A stretch of 51,969 nucleotides of DNA from an uncultured archaeon (GTDB taxonomy: Archaea > Asgardarchaeota > Lokiarchaeia > Sigyniarchaeales > SOKP01): NCBI GenBank assembly GCA_964632315.1, contig CAZWEM010000032.1, positions 1 to 51,969 on the forward strand, in the 5' to 3' direction. A program made the translations under genes and the position numbers. The notes beneath the pieces were generated by a model, which did not search any database, was not told the DNA's origin, and saw only the letters and a program-made list of their open reading frames with translations. Shown piece by piece: positions 46,986 through 50,488 of this stretch (its first letter is position 1; every line of letters starts with the position of its first letter).

Positions 46986-47933
46986 TTAATCAGACAACTC
47001 TTTAGTTCCTTCCCAAAAGATATAAGCTTTGCGTGTACCCGTTATCTTCTTTAGCTTAAATACAATCAATGCGCAAATATTAATAGCGATTATATTCATG
47101 GCCAAAAGAATAAAACTTCCTAAAGAAAGCAAGGGGTTATTATAAATGATTGCAAGACCTATGTTCACAGCAGGAGGCATTAACGCAACAGCAATGGCTA
47201 CTCCAATTAATGAGGTTTTGATACTGCCAGTAATTCCTATTCCAACTGCAATGCCCGCACAAATTGCTACAACTAAATCAAATAAATTAGGATATCCTCT
47301 CGCCATCATTTGTGCTGTAATACTTGGGGGATTTAGAAACACTAACCCTAATACACCTATTAGCATACCAGTACCAATTGAAATAATTAAACCTAAGAAT
47401 TGTTCTAAAATTCCAATCTTTACCATTTTGAATTCCTTGCTTGCTATGCCGAAAGATACTCCCAATATCGGACTCATTAGTGGAGATAAAATCATAGAAG
47501 CAATAAGGATAATTGCAGAATTTAAGATTAATCCAACTCCGGCAACTAAGGCTGATAATAATATAAAAGTAAAAAAATCTAGGCTAAATGTCGAAGTGTC
47601 TTCTAAATTTTTCTTAATCTCCTCAATAGTAACTCTTTGCGTAACTATTTTCTTTCTTTTTTCCTGTTCTTCTTCATTTAAAGTGATTTCTGGAATTGAT
47701 GCTTTAAGCGATAAAATATCAATTATTCCATGAATTGTTCCGACTCCACTCTTATTAAGACTCTTAACTATTTCCGGTACCATCATTCTATTACTCCTAA
47801 TTATAATGAGCGAATTATCAATCCCTTTTATTAACATAATATTCTTGATCTTTAATTCATTCTTCAAAACATCTACTATTGCTTGGATATAGTCTTCGGG
47901 GTCATTAGGCAATGTAATTTGAATCTGACTAAT
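46986..47933 (-). CDS. DUF389 / TIGR00341-family membrane protein
   Basis: GLILNSAIILIASMILSPLMSPILG, GVAIAVALMPPA. The frame extends to ATT at 47933 (ISQIQITLP), with TTG at 47912 as alternative. Confidence 0.85.
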   Translation of the reverse strand: MSQIQITLPNDPEDYIQAIVDVLKNELKIKNIMLIKGIDNSLIIIRSNRMMVPEIVKSLNKSGVGTIHGIIDILSLKASIPEITLNEEEQEKRKKIVTQRVTIEEIKKNLEDTSTFSLDFFTFILLSALVAGVGLILNSAIILIASMILSPLMSPILGVSFGIASKEFKMVKIGILEQFLGLIISIGTGMLIGVLGLVFLNPPSITAQMMARGYPNLFDLVVAICAGIAVGIGITGSIKTSLIGVAIAVALMPPAVNIGLAIIYNNPLLSLGSFILLAMNIIAINICALIVFKLKKITGTRKAYIFWEGTKELSD

Positions 47934-48210: not shown

Positions 48211-49617
48211 CTAATTATTATTAATATAATCAATAATTCTATTTTTTTTTCCAATAGCTTGACTAGCAGCTTCCTCTAGCCTTCTTTCCATTTTTTTGAT
48301 ATCTTCAGGAATCTCTTCCCCTATTTCTTGTTTAATTTTTGTATAAGCAGATTCTCTAAAACGTGGCAAAACATTTTGCTTCTCATCTTGAGAAATCATT
48401 GAAACTGTCTTTGAATCATCCACATATCCAATCTCAGCACATTCAATCTGATTTTGTGCGAGATCTTGAATGATATCATCGACGACCTCCTGGGAACAAT
48501 ATATCAATAATGCATCAAGTGATACTCCCAGATAATCGACATTTACCGATTCTAATAAATTTAATACTTTCTTGTTGACTAATGCTCTTACTTTTTCTTC
48601 ATAAATCGTAACACCACATTCTGCTTCATAATTTATTTCATAAAGGTCTCCTCTTAAACCCCCGTTAGTGACATCGCACATTGCTCGGATTTCAGAAAGA
48701 TAAGTAGAATTTAGTATTATTTTTGCTGCTTCCAAGAACTTAATGTTTAAAGTCTCCTTGAGTATCTCATGATTTCCTGAATAAATAGCTGTTGTAGTGA
48801 TAGTACCTCCTCCAGTGCCCTCAGTCATGAGAATTCTATCACCTGGTTGAATATTCCTTCTAGCCAGGATGCTTTTTGAAGCTATACCTATTGCTGCGAG
48901 CCCTCCAACAAATCGATCCCCAATGACCATATCTCCTCCAATCCTTAAAGTTGACCCAGCAGTTATAGGAACTTGAGCCAACTCTGAGATTGTTGATACA
49001 CCCGCCATAAAGTCAAATAATTTTCCAACGTCTGCATCATCTCCTAAATGTGCATCAATCATTATAGAAATAGGAATAGAACCTTTAACATAAAGATCCC
49101 TTAGTGCGGCTCTCGATACGCTTCACGCTAACATATATTGTGAATTTACGTGAAACCCACACAAGAATGGAAAATCACTTAAGCGACTGTGAATTCCTTC
49201 CATTTTGGATACAATGATTAAATCATCTTTCCCTTTAAATCCTTCAATATCACTCAATCTAACAGCACCAGCATCATCCAAGGAACTTGGTGATAAATAT
49301 GCTTTCTTCTCAGTTTCAGATAATTTTGCAATGAGTTTATGAACAAAAAAGTCTCCTGATCCCCTACAACCAACTCCTTGTTTTCCAATAGTCACATTAG
49401 CTTTATTAACATCTAAGACATATCTCATAAAAGGATCCAAAACATCCTTTACTTCACTATTTTTACATTCTTCATAAATAGCTTCTGCAAGCAAGGTTGC
49501 AGACTCTTGTTCAATGTCTTTAAAAATTTTATATTCATTAACAAGGCGTCCTATAATTTCTTCCTCAGAAAAACCCTTTTCCATCAACCTTCTGGTTAAG
49601 CCTTCTAAATCACTCAA
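48211..49617 (-). CDS. AIR-synthase-related protein (PurM/HypE/ThiL/SelD superfamily), intron-containing: exon 1 49146-49617, exon 2 48211-49115, 458 aa when spliced
   Basis: Both ORFs are in the same frame and carry one family's motifs (GVGCRGSGDF, DDAG, EGIHSRLSDFPFL, HLGDDADVGKL, GSTLRIGGDMV, DVTNGGLRGD, FRESAYT). Removing 49116-49145 gives GFHVTRAALRDLYVKG. Confidence 0.88.
49116..49145 (-). other. 30-nt archaeal bulge-helix-bulge (BHB) mRNA intron
   Basis: GUGUGG-G-UUUC-ACGU-AA^A-UUCAC-(13-nt loop)-GUGAA-GCGU-AU^C-GAGA-G-CCGCAC: outer helix, 4-bp central helix, two 3-nt bulges and a 5-bp inner helix; contains the in-frame UGA at 49123-49125. Confidence 0.85.
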
Positions 49618-50488
49618 AAATCAAACCTCTTGTATATAAATCAATTTATACTAATTTATAATAAATAAGAACCTATATAATATGTTTCCCATTTAATCTG
49701 GTTTACCTTTTATATAAAATCTTGAAAAAATTAAAAAACCATTAATTGCTTCGCCTTATTTCCTTTTATTCTTTCTATAAATCTTAATTCCTCTGGACCA
49801 TCACGGTGTCATCAATAAAAGATAATATAAATTGAACATTTTTGGGCTTAACTTTCACCCGCTTTATATTTTATTTATCAAATAATTGATTATACCTCTT
49901 AATCTTCCCACCATAAATTACCAAACGCTTTCGATTCTTAATAGGAATAACAAATATGCAGCATAATCTGACCAGATCTTGTATTATGCTATTTGGGGTA
50001 AGGAATTAAGTCAACCAAGTAATATGAAAAAGAAAATCATGATTAGGTCTATGGTTTACAATCAATTACGTATCACCTCTACACTAGAAACTATAAAAAA
50101 TAAATTTGAAGACTACTTTGTGGTAATATTTGATAATGTTTCAGAAAATAATTTTTTAGTTTCCTTTAAAGACTAGGTTTTACTCCTTGTGTTCGCTGAA
50201 AAAAATAATTTGTTGAGAATCATACTTTCGTTTAGTATTTCACAGCTTAAATGATCAACAATTATATCCAAGAAAATTATACGTTATCTCCTCCATTTTC
50301 TTTTTGAATGTAGGGGTTGAATATTTTCAATGTTGTTATAAATGATAATCGAACATTATTTCATCATATTTATACCTTATTCTCGGCAAATCATAAGAGT
50401 TAGACTAATTTTACTTATCTCTCTCTAAAAACTTGATTAAAATAGATTATTCGCAATTTAACGAATTTTTTTTATCACTTTTAAAGGG

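What the first reader, a model, noticed from the sequence alone, without database searches (positions are those of the whole stretch)
49104..49162. Canonical bulge-helix-bulge intron inside a protein-coding gene of a probable Asgard archaeon
Seen in sequence: the AIR-synthase-related gene is broken by a 30-nt in-frame insert with a UGA. On the minus strand, 49162->49104 reads GUGUGG G UUUC ACGU AAA UUCAC AAUAUAUGUUAGC GUGAA GCGU AUC GAGA G CCGCAC. It folds into a complete hBHBh' motif: exon-exon outer helix GUGUGG/CCGCAC plus UUUC/GAGA (10 bp around one G-G mismatch), 4-bp central helix ACGU/GCGU, 3-nt bulges AAA and AUC each 3' of the central helix, and intron helix UUCAC/GUGAA. Established: the archaeal tRNA splicing endonuclease EndA cuts after the second nucleotide of each bulge and RtcB ligates. 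Applying that rule removes exactly 49116-49145 and creates a new codon ACG across the junction, giving ...GFHV-T-RAALRDLYVKG... in a 458-aa frame. From memory, FHVTRAALRD is the motif of uninterrupted archaeal homologues. The best-known archaeal mRNA intron is in crenarchaeal cbf5, and I know of no report for this gene family or for Asgard mRNAs (not verified). Inference: EndA/RtcB-dependent mRNA splicing in a lineage close to eukaryotes.
Basis: partly seen in the sequence, partly recalled or inferred. Interest (0 to 1): 0.95.

Follow-up and report, generated by a model that had tools for sequence, protein, structure and literature searches.

The report
tRNA-type mini-intron in Asgard enzyme gene
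A 30-base insert with a stop codon that splits an otherwise intact enzyme gene of an Asgard (Loki-type) archaeon has the exact RNA shape that the tRNA-splicing enzymes cut; comparison of 91 related genes shows it behaves as a real intron that must be cut out of the mRNA, which papers report for only one other archaeal coding gene (cbf5).

Summary
On the minus strand, 49162->49104 folds as its minimum-energy structure into a complete hBHBh' motif. Removing 49116-49145 fuses two ORFs into a 458-aa AIR-synthase/PurM-family protein reading ...CGFHV-T-RAALRD.

Among 91 distinct orthologues from Promethearchaeota (Asgard) MAGs:
- 73 read CGFHV[T/A]RA[A/C]LRD without interruption.
- 18 carry an insert at the same codon: 14 of 30 nt and 4 of 29 nt, the latter shifting the frame.
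- All 18 inserts contain an in-frame stop.
- The intron helix shows compensatory changes.
- Exon codons inside the BHB are frozen at synonymous sites only in intron-bearing alleles.
- Both exons stay under purifying selection (dN/dS about 0.1, dS above 1.5).

The genome encodes EndA alpha and beta subunits and RtcB. Its only strong leuS match and an acs gene are split by similar inserts.

The best reading is a genuine EndA/RtcB-spliced mRNA intron (about 0.88). Splicing itself is not shown, because no RNA data cover the site.

In the papers I could search, coding-sequence BHB introns are reported only for crenarchaeal cbf5. This scan had already flagged the same kind of mini-intron in other genes of this genome and in other Lokiarchaeial genomes, so this is one more well-supported member of an unpublished class.

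The parts
48211..49617 (-). Whole interrupted gene (TTG start at 49617, stop 48211-48213). It encodes an AIR-synthase/PurM-superfamily protein of unknown substrate, 458 aa after splicing, and is single copy in the genome.
   Evidence: Pfam AIRS (24.3 bits) and AIRS_C (51 bits). Only sub-threshold ThiL/SelD/HypE hits in NCBIfam. Weak HypE match in PDB (3vti) starting at DLYVKGSIP. Only paralogues of 24-26% identity elsewhere in G000.
49146..49617 (-). Exon 1: 157 codons plus the first base (A, 49146) of the junction codon.
   Evidence: Translation. dN/dS 0.13 among intron-bearing alleles.
49116..49145 (-). The 30-nt intron, phase 1, with in-frame TGA at 49123-49125.
   Evidence: Absent at exactly this place in 73 of 91 distinct orthologues.
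48211..49115 (-). Exon 2: CG of the junction codon, 300 codons and the stop.
   Evidence: Translation. dN/dS 0.10 among intron-bearing alleles. The stretch RAALRDLYVKGSIPISI between the intron and the first ATG is conserved as protein with synonymous changes.
49104..49162 (-). Complete hBHBh' motif (exon-exon helix, central helix, two bulges, intron hairpin).
   Evidence: MFE = centroid structure, -19.7 kcal/mol, z -3.3. 94.6% of cells paired over 18 species against 28-58% for slid partners.
49152..49162 (-). 5' strand of outer (exon-exon) helix h: GUGUGG G UUUC.
   Evidence: helix 1: 96% of cells paired.
49104..49114 (-). 3' strand of outer helix h: GAGA G CCGCAC.
49148..49151 (-). Central 4-bp helix H, 5' strand ACGU (exon 1).
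   Evidence: 98.6% paired.
49118..49121 (-). Central helix H, 3' strand GCGU (intron).
49145..49147 (-). 5' bulge AAA; predicted cut between 49146 and 49145.
   Evidence: The cut rule (between 2nd and 3rd bulge residue) is as stated for cbf5 in PMC2738675.
49115..49117 (-). 3' bulge AUC; predicted cut between 49116 and 49115.
   Evidence: The junction restores the V-T-R of intron-less orthologues.
49122..49144 (-). Intron hairpin h' (UUCAC / GUGAA with a 13-nt loop; up to 9 bp in relatives).
   Evidence: 5 of 9 pairs show changes on both sides across 18 species.

Best explanation
The 30 nt at 49116-49145 (minus strand) are a bulge-helix-bulge intron in the mRNA of a single-copy PurM/AIR-synthase-family gene of a Promethearchaeota (Lokiarchaeia-type Asgard) archaeon.

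Proposed mechanism (inferred):
1. In the transcript, the last 17 nt of exon 1 and the first 12 nt of exon 2 pair with each other and with the intron. This forms helix - 4-bp helix - helix with two 3-nt bulges.
2. The heterotetrameric (alpha-beta)2 splicing endonuclease EndA cuts after the second nucleotide of each bulge.
3. RtcB joins the exons, and probably circularises the 30-mer.
4. The join creates codon ACG and an open 458-codon frame.

Unspliced RNA can give only a 164-aa fragment, because the intron carries an in-frame stop.

What is shown: the structure, its conservation and covariation, the exactness of the junction, selection on both exons and on the exon bases of the motif, and the presence of the enzymes. 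What is inferred: cleavage and ligation in the cell.
For: (1) The motif is the MFE fold, z -3.3.

(2) Five of 25 genomes of the genus, and 18 of 91 distinct orthologues, carry an insert at the same codon. The other 73 read CGFHV[T/A]RA[A/C]LRD without interruption. This includes relatives that are 85-91% identical in exon 2.

(3) Four inserts are 29 nt and so shift the frame, yet they keep the same exon boundaries.

(4) Across the 18 inserts, 94.6% of cells are paired, against 28-58% with slid partners. The intron helix has 5 of 9 pairs changed on both sides, and 0 of 500 shuffles reach the observed score.

(5) Exon codons inside the motif are frozen only where the intron is present: TTT 18/18, CAC 17/18, GTA 17/18, ACG 18/18, AGR 18/18. 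The 73 intron-less alleles use these codons freely (ACG 7/73, CGN 51/73). Codons just outside the motif vary equally in both groups.

(6) dN/dS is 0.13 for exon 1 and 0.10 for exon 2 among intron-bearing alleles, at dS above 1.5. The gene has therefore stayed functional with the intron.

(7) All 18 inserts carry an in-frame stop. In 17 of them it is at the same codon, as TGA or TAA, and it survives a compensatory G->A change.

(8) G000 encodes two EndA paralogues that are 31% identical, one with and one without the catalytic His region, plus one RtcB. Asgard EndA is described as (alpha-beta)2 type with the L1 loop in PMC5829648.

(9) In the same genome, the only strong leuS match and an acs gene are split by 30-nt and 32-nt BHB-like inserts. 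The Pfam coordinates of their flanking ORFs abut: tRNA-synt_1g 5-46 | 48-145, and AMP-binding 4-211 | 215-370.
Against: There is no RNA-level evidence for this locus. No RNA run holds it, and the one run that could be laid has no contig over the site; both are blanks, not negatives.

My own genome-wide BHB scan did not exceed its mirror-pair control in number (1117 against 1300). A BHB-like fold alone is therefore weak evidence; the case rests on comparative data.

The intron-bearing alleles are related, so the counts in (4) and (5) are not 18 independent events.

Two of the 18 motifs are relaxed. L102 has an A.G at one end of the central helix, and L108 has a shifted intron helix.

The codon GUA occurs both at the end of exon 1 and near the 3' end of the intron. 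A ribosomal hop is therefore not formally excluded by sequence alone.
Confidence: 0.88

Rival explanations
1. Translational recoding. The ribosome either reads through the in-frame stop, giving a 10-aa insert, or hops from the GUA at the end of exon 1 to the GUA near the 3' end of the insert, as in phage T4 gene 60, giving FHV-S-RAALRD.
For: The insert in the window is in frame. GUA occurs at 49147-49149 and again at 49117-49119. One intron-less homologue has Ser at the junction position. One public gene call read the TGA as Trp, which is a gene-caller choice and not evidence.
Against: Four inserts of 29 nt shift the frame, which excludes read-through. The stop is TGA in some alleles and TAA in others, and L098 and L109 have two stops. 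The insert 'peptide' is not conserved, whereas the RNA pairs are. The take-off codon is not followed by a stop, unlike gene 60. L102 lacks the landing GUA and L066 has GUU at the take-off position. The repeated GUA is a by-product of the self-complementary ACGU helix. Inserts of the same kind in leuS and acs have other boundaries.
Confidence: 0.03
2. A decaying or inactivated gene. A small hairpin element (MITE-like or a repeat) landed in the gene and the locus is a pseudogene.
For: Gene callers split the locus into 164-aa and 283-aa ORFs. Public databases hold many such 283-aa fragments.
Against: Both halves are under strong purifying selection among intron-bearing alleles, although synonymous sites are saturated (dN/dS 0.10-0.13, dS above 1.5). 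There are no other lesions in 18 species. The gene is single copy. The insert's structure, not its sequence, is conserved. Exon synonymous sites that form the motif are frozen.
Confidence: 0.03
3. A split gene. Two separate polypeptides (164 aa and 283 aa from ATG 49062) are made and assemble, and the hairpin serves as a terminator or translational coupling signal.
For: An ATG opens the downstream ORF at 49062.
Against: The 17 codons between the insert and that ATG (RAALRDLYVKGSIPISI) are conserved as protein with synonymous changes in all intron-bearing alleles. They contain the core D..[YM].G..P motif that aligns with HypE, and a split would discard them. Close relatives (85-91% identical in exon 2) encode one chain.
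Confidence: 0.03
4. An assembly or sequencing artefact created the insert.
For: None found.
Against: The insert is present with diverged sequence in 18 independently assembled genomes and contigs from different studies.
Confidence: 0

Closest known systems
BHB intron of the cbf5 (pseudouridine synthase) pre-mRNA in Crenarchaeota (Desulfurococcales, Sulfolobales; Watanabe 2002; Yoshinari 2006; Yokobori 2009, PMC2738675)
   Same: A short intron inside a coding sequence, folded with its exon borders into a BHB motif. It is cut between the 2nd and 3rd bulge residue by a hetero-oligomeric splicing endonuclease. It sits inside a conserved core motif of the enzyme, so it must be removed for function. 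Its distribution among relatives is patchy, with gains and losses.
   Different: The host gene is different and unrelated (PurM superfamily), and so is the lineage (Asgard, not TACK). Here the motif is a canonical hBHBh', whereas most cbf5 introns are 'unconventional' BHB. Here splicing is inferred only; for cbf5, cDNA exists. The two introns are not homologous.
Archaeal pre-tRNA introns at position 37/38 (canonical hBHBh', Marck and Grosjean 2003)
   Same: Same geometry. The 5' strand runs h - H - bulge - h' and the 3' strand runs h' - H - bulge - h, so both bulges are 3' of the central helix. Size is in the same range. The same enzymes are expected to act (EndA, RtcB).
   Different: The host is an mRNA. 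The 'anticodon arm' is made of codons (C-G-F-H-V / R-A-A), so exon bases serve both coding and folding, seen as frozen synonymous sites. The intron carries a stop codon in the host frame.
BHB intron in the 5' UTR of Haloferax volcanii HVO_1309 (Schwarz 2020, PMC7714728)
   Same: An mRNA substrate of the archaeal splicing endonuclease, shown by circRNA-seq and in vitro cleavage.
   Different: That intron (46 nt) lies in the untranslated leader and does not interrupt a reading frame.
HAC1/XBP1 unconventional mRNA splicing in eukaryotes (IRE1 cleavage, RtcB or Trl1 ligation)
   Same: A spliceosome-independent, protein-enzyme-catalysed removal of a short intron from an mRNA. Ligation is by the tRNA ligase (RtcB in metazoa), and the intron controls whether the full-length protein can be made (from established knowledge; RtcB/HAC1 is cited in the reference list of PMC5829648).
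   Different: The nuclease is IRE1, which recognises two 7-nt loops, not EndA on a BHB. No homology of the introns is implied.

Membership tests
Archaeal BHB (EndA-type) intron | Two 3-nt bulges on opposite strands separated by a 4-bp helix | tested here: met
   MFE fold of 49104-49162. Central helix 98.6% paired in 18 species, bulges kept at 3 nt.
Archaeal BHB (EndA-type) intron | Flanking helices h (exon-exon) and h' (intron), i.e. the strict hBHBh' form | tested here: met
   h has 10 bp around one mismatch and is 96% paired. h' has 5-9 bp, is 91% paired, and 5 of its 9 pairs show double changes.
Archaeal BHB (EndA-type) intron | Cutting after nt 2 of each bulge yields the functional mature sequence | tested here: met
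   The junction gives V-T-R, identical to intron-less orthologues. The same holds for the 29-nt and 30-nt versions.
Archaeal BHB (EndA-type) intron | The organism encodes the splicing endonuclease and the RtcB ligase | tested here: met
   Two tRNA_int_endo genes (103 and 70 bits) and one RtcB (568 bits) in G000.
Archaeal BHB (EndA-type) intron | The intron is actually excised and the exons ligated in RNA | not testable with these tools
   No RNA run holds the locus. The contigs of run X1 do not cover the site.
cbf5 mRNA intron family (homologous introns in the cbf5 gene) | Located in cbf5, at the codon of the catalytic Asp | tested here: not met
   The host is an AIRS/AIRS_C protein. It works like the cbf5 intron but is not a member of that intron lineage.
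Programmed ribosomal bypass (T4 gene 60 type) | Matched take-off and landing codons, a stop right after the take-off codon, and a take-off hairpin | tested here: not met
   GUA...GUA is present in the window, but the codon after take-off is AAU, not a stop. The landing GUA is absent in L102, and the take-off codon is GUU in L066.
PurM/AIR-synthase superfamily (host protein) | AIRS N-domain plus AIRS_C domain over Pfam thresholds | tested here: met
   AIRS 24.3 bits (cut-off 24) and AIRS_C 51.1 bits (cut-off 23.1). No equivalog (ThiL, SelD, HypE, PurM) reaches its cut-off, so the subfamily and its substrate are unknown.

The most novel reading that the evidence does not exclude
This intron is one member of a genome-wide system. 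In this Lokiarchaeial genus the tRNA-splicing enzymes would routinely process many mRNAs, including essential ones such as leuS and, from this scan's unchecked notes, TBP. The uniform 29-32-nt introns would carry in-frame stops as a fail-safe against translating unspliced RNA in a cell without a nucleus. Presence or absence of an intron would segregate by recombination within the gene: the intron follows the exon-1 genealogy, not that of exon 2. Full-length enzyme would then depend on EndA/RtcB activity. That would be enzyme-catalysed mRNA splicing as a regular layer of gene expression in the closest prokaryotic relatives of eukaryotes.
Probability: 0.55. Interest if true: 0.88.

Novelty: new member of a known kind. 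Interest (0 to 1): 0.74.

Why it matters
Introns inside archaeal protein-coding genes are reported in the papers I could search for a single gene, cbf5 in Crenarchaeota, plus one 5'-UTR case in Haloferax. A 2020 paper states this explicitly (PMC7714728).

A well-supported BHB intron in an ordinary metabolic gene of an Asgard archaeon extends protein-catalysed mRNA splicing to the lineage closest to eukaryotes. That holds all the more alongside the leuS and acs cases in the same genome.

It bears on three questions:
- How cells without a nucleus cope with translating unspliced mRNA. Every one of the 18 introns carries a stop.
- The ancestry of RtcB-dependent unconventional mRNA splicing (HAC1/XBP1).
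- Annotation. Gene callers currently split such genes into fragments, or switch to a TGA=Trp code. Asgard gene inventories and pseudogene counts are therefore biased.

The locus also gives a compact test object: a 59-nt cassette with natural 29-nt and 30-nt variants and natural intron-less alleles.

Tried and rejected
- RNA evidence. The look-up of sequencing runs (kind rna) listed no RNA holder. The single run of unknown kind (X1) was laid, but its five short contigs cover only 48488-49023 and not the intron. This is no evidence either way.
- Genome-wide census. My BHB-in-CDS scanner required a central helix of 4/4 pairs, h and h' of at least 3 bp, at least 60 open codons on each side, and a broken unspliced frame. 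It gave 1117 candidates against 1300 for a mirror-pairing control, with no enrichment at any stringency or length. It cannot count introns. It ranked the present intron first and surfaced leuS and acs by eye. Its ORF-length filter excludes short genes.
- tRNAs in the window: none.
- 'No stop' variant. P0008 seemed to read through the insert (..AWSVS..), but its contig has TGA there and the gene was called with TGA=W. I rejected the idea that some introns lack a stop.
- 'At least 10 independent precise losses', read from the full-length gene tree. I weakened this: on the exon-1 tree only 3 changes are forced by supported branches, and on the exon-2 tree the state is nearly random. Recombination within the gene explains much of the patchiness.
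- tRNA mimicry of the exon part. Read as anticodon-loop positions 32-37, it would place C at position 33, where tRNAs carry a nearly universal U. This comes from reading the sequence and from established knowledge, and I did not pursue it.
- Function of the host enzyme. NCBIfam and PDB searches give only sub-threshold ThiL, SelD and HypE similarity. JGI's name 'hydrogenase expression/formation protein' is a family-level label only.
Full report
**1. The observation.** On the minus strand the gene runs from TTG 49617 to the stop at 48211-48213. Gene finding splits it into a 164-aa ORF (49123..49617) ending ...GFHVNSQYMLA* and a 283-aa ORF (48211..49062).

RNAfold returns the proposed structure as both minimum-energy and centroid fold: -19.7 kcal/mol, against -11.2 +/- 2.5 for shuffles, z -3.3, with 0 of 200 shuffles as good. 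The parts are:
- an exon-exon helix, GUGUGG/CCGCAC plus UUUC/GAGA, around one G.G mismatch;
- a 4-bp central helix, ACGU/GCGU;
- two 3-nt bulges (AAA, AUC), each 3' of the central helix;
- an intron hairpin, UUCAC/GUGAA.

This is the same strand order as a canonical tRNA 37/38 intron. Cutting after the second nucleotide of each bulge removes 49116-49145 (30 nt). It joins GTA A|CG AGA and gives a 458-codon frame reading ...CGFHV-T-RAALRDLYVKG....

**2. Host gene and organism.** The product has Pfam AIRS and AIRS_C domains. It reaches no NCBIfam equivalog cut-off; ThiL, SelD and HypE are all far below theirs. The only PDB sequence match is a HypE, aligned from DLYVKGSIP onward. The intron therefore lies six codons before the conserved Asp of the core D..G..P motif of the PurM fold.

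The gene is single copy in this 99.5%-complete genome. Other AIRS genes are only 24-26% identical. Its close relatives lie in MAGs named Promethearchaeota or Promethearchaeia, in kingdom Promethearchaeati, that is Asgard.

**3. Comparative test of the junction.** All 24 other genomes of the genus searched have an orthologue of this AIR-synthase-related gene. Four of them (G010, G006, G018, G024) have an internal stop and the extra 30 nt, and most of the rest read through. G004 gave only a weak match (E 1.4e-6), so its orthologue was not recovered.

With 80 further loci from GTDB species genomes, I obtained 91 distinct full-length sequences:
- 73 have no insert and read CGFHV[T/A]RA[A/C]LRD.
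- 14 have a 30-nt insert at the same codon.
- 4 have a 29-nt insert at the same codon.
- Orthologues from the other genera of the order that were recovered show no insert.

In the protein database, HVTRAALRD is the commonest form, in 59 of 120 hits. Intron-less relatives that are 85-91% identical in exon 2 exist (P0006 and others; DNA seen in L116). A 95%-identical relative carries the identical intron (L115).

**4. The insert behaves as a structured RNA, not as coding sequence.**
- Pairing: on the alignment of the 18 distinct inserts with their exon borders (A1), 94.6% of cells form standard pairs. With partners slid by 1-3 columns, only 28-58% do.
- Covariation: six pairs show changes on both sides, five of them in the 9-bp intron helix. 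No shuffle of 500 reaches the observed covariation. Examples are UUCAC/GUGAA, UUUAUGC/GCAUAAA and UUCAUGUAA/UUACAUGAA.
- Stops: read in the exon-1 frame, the insert 'peptides' are unrelated (NSQYMLA, ILCSRFA, ISCNGFT...). All 18 contain a stop, in 17 cases at the same codon, as TGA or TAA.
- Frame: the four 29-nt inserts shift the frame, so simple read-through cannot make the protein.
- Exceptions: two motifs are relaxed (L102, L108).

**5. Selection on exon bases that build the motif.** In the 18 intron-bearing alleles, the codons that form helices h and H and the bulges are almost invariant at synonymous sites:

| Residue | Intron-bearing (18) | Intron-less (73) |
|---|---|---|
| Phe | TTT 18/18 | TTT 63, TTC 10 |
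| His | CAC 17/18 | CAT 56, CAC 17 |
| Val | GTA 17/18 | four codons |
| junction Thr | ACG 18/18 | ACG 7/73 |
| Arg | AGR 18/18 | CGN 51/73 |

Codons a few positions further on (L, R, D, L) are equally variable in both groups. This is what is expected if the exon-side nucleotides are needed for recognition by the endonuclease. The alleles are related, so this is not 18 independent trials. However, synonymous divergence between them is saturated elsewhere.

**6. The gene stays functional with the intron.** Pairwise Nei-Gojobori estimates among intron-bearing alleles give a median dN/dS of 0.13 for exon 1 and 0.10 for exon 2, at a median dS of 1.5-1.8. The 17 codons between the intron and the first downstream ATG are conserved as protein with synonymous changes. 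This rejects both a pseudogene and a two-polypeptide split.

**7. The enzymes and the wider system.** The genome encodes two EndA paralogues of 205 and 207 aa. They are 31% identical and both have the N-terminal and catalytic domains. One keeps the His-containing catalytic segment and the other lacks it, which fits alpha and beta subunits (the subunit assignment is my inference). It also encodes one RtcB. Asgard archaea are reported to have the (alpha-beta)2 EndA with the L1 loop that gives broad specificity (PMC5829648).

ARAGORN finds only 29 tRNA genes, 18 of them with introns. This fits the heavily interrupted tRNA genes described for Asgard in a 2026 preprint that does not mention mRNAs.

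My motif scan is not specific as a census, but it ranked this intron first and surfaced two more cases that I checked:
- The only strong leuS match is split by a 30-nt BHB-like insert. The two ORFs match tRNA-synt_1g positions 5-46 and 48-145.
- An acs gene is split by a 32-nt insert. The two ORFs match AMP-binding positions 4-211 and 215-370.

An apparently single-copy, essential synthetase interrupted in the same way makes it very likely that this organism removes such inserts from mRNA.

**8. History.** On the full-length protein tree, intron presence needs about 11 changes. The state follows the exon-1 tree: 10 changes, only 3 forced by supported branches, and 0 of 500 shuffles as low. On the exon-2 tree it is nearly random: 15 changes against a shuffled mean of 16.5.

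The window's exon 1 is closest to L066, L055 and L074 (dS 0.4-0.6), while its exon 2 is closest to L002. Recombination inside the gene, rather than many separate precise deletions, probably explains much of the patchy distribution. This is an inference from short alignments. The simplest history is one gain within the genus followed by losses and allelic exchange.

**9. What is known.** The searchable literature reports a BHB intron within a coding sequence only for crenarchaeal cbf5, and an mRNA 5'-UTR intron for Haloferax HVO_1309. A 2020 paper says so explicitly. The 2009 cbf5 paper notes that introns in other protein genes had only been predicted. Six searches found nothing on Asgard mRNA introns. 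Subscription-only papers are not covered.

Inside this scan the phenomenon is not new. Earlier notes describe the same kind of mini-intron in TBP, leuS, acs, SCP2, E2, histone, gap and mvhD of this very genome, and in other Lokiarchaeial genomes. One of those has environmental RNA support for TBP. An orthologue of the present gene in another genome had been flagged as a 'recoding candidate or fresh pseudogene', and the present data contradict that reading.

**10. Verdict.** This is a genuine BHB intron in an Asgard protein-coding gene, mechanistically of the cbf5 kind (a new member of a known kind). Splicing is inferred at about 0.88 and awaits RNA evidence.

Noticed in passing
G000 contig C41:26254-26283 (minus); locus L118:2755-2784: The only strong leucyl-tRNA synthetase match in the genome is split by a 30-nt BHB-like insert (H UAUG/CAUA, intron helix GUAUUUC/GAAAUAC, phase 0). 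The flanking ORFs match tRNA-synt_1g positions 5-46 and 48-145.
   Followed up: partly
G000 contig C25:788-819 (minus); locus L119: An acetyl-CoA synthetase gene is split by a 32-nt, frame-shifting BHB-like insert between ...GDVWYCTA and DIGWITGHSYIVYGPL. The AMP-binding coordinates abut (4-211 | 215-370). The downstream frame ends after 211 codons, which suggests further inserts.
   Followed up: partly
window 48211-49617 and loci L002-L109: Exon 1 and exon 2 of this gene have different genealogies. The window's exon 1 is nearest L066/L055/L074 and its exon 2 is nearest L002. Intron presence tracks exon 1 only. This is a sign of recombination inside the gene near the intron.
   Followed up: partly
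L114 (ENA contig), proteins P0004-P0019: Public gene calls mishandle these loci. Many 283-aa C-terminal fragments are deposited as separate proteins. One contig was translated with TGA=Trp, so the intron appears as a 10-aa insert (..NLRYVIAWSVS..).
   Followed up: yes
window 49615-49617: The gene starts with TTG here, whereas close relatives start with ATG at the same position (MSDLEGL...).
   Followed up: no
window 46986-47912 (minus) and loci L116/L117: The AIRS-family gene is followed by a DUF389 membrane protein gene in the window. In intron-less relatives the order is response regulator - AIRS - DUF389 - NAD synthase/QueC-like. The conserved neighbourhood gives no clear functional lead.
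   Followed up: no
whole genome G000: ARAGORN finds only 29 tRNA genes in a 99.5%-complete genome, 18 of them with introns. Several calls have implausibly long 'introns' (over 1 kb) and are probably false. Many tRNA genes are presumably hidden by multiple or non-canonical introns.
   Followed up: no
window 49618-50400: About 800 nt upstream of the gene are AT-rich with no ORF above 65 aa on either strand, an unusually long non-coding stretch for this genome.
   Followed up: no
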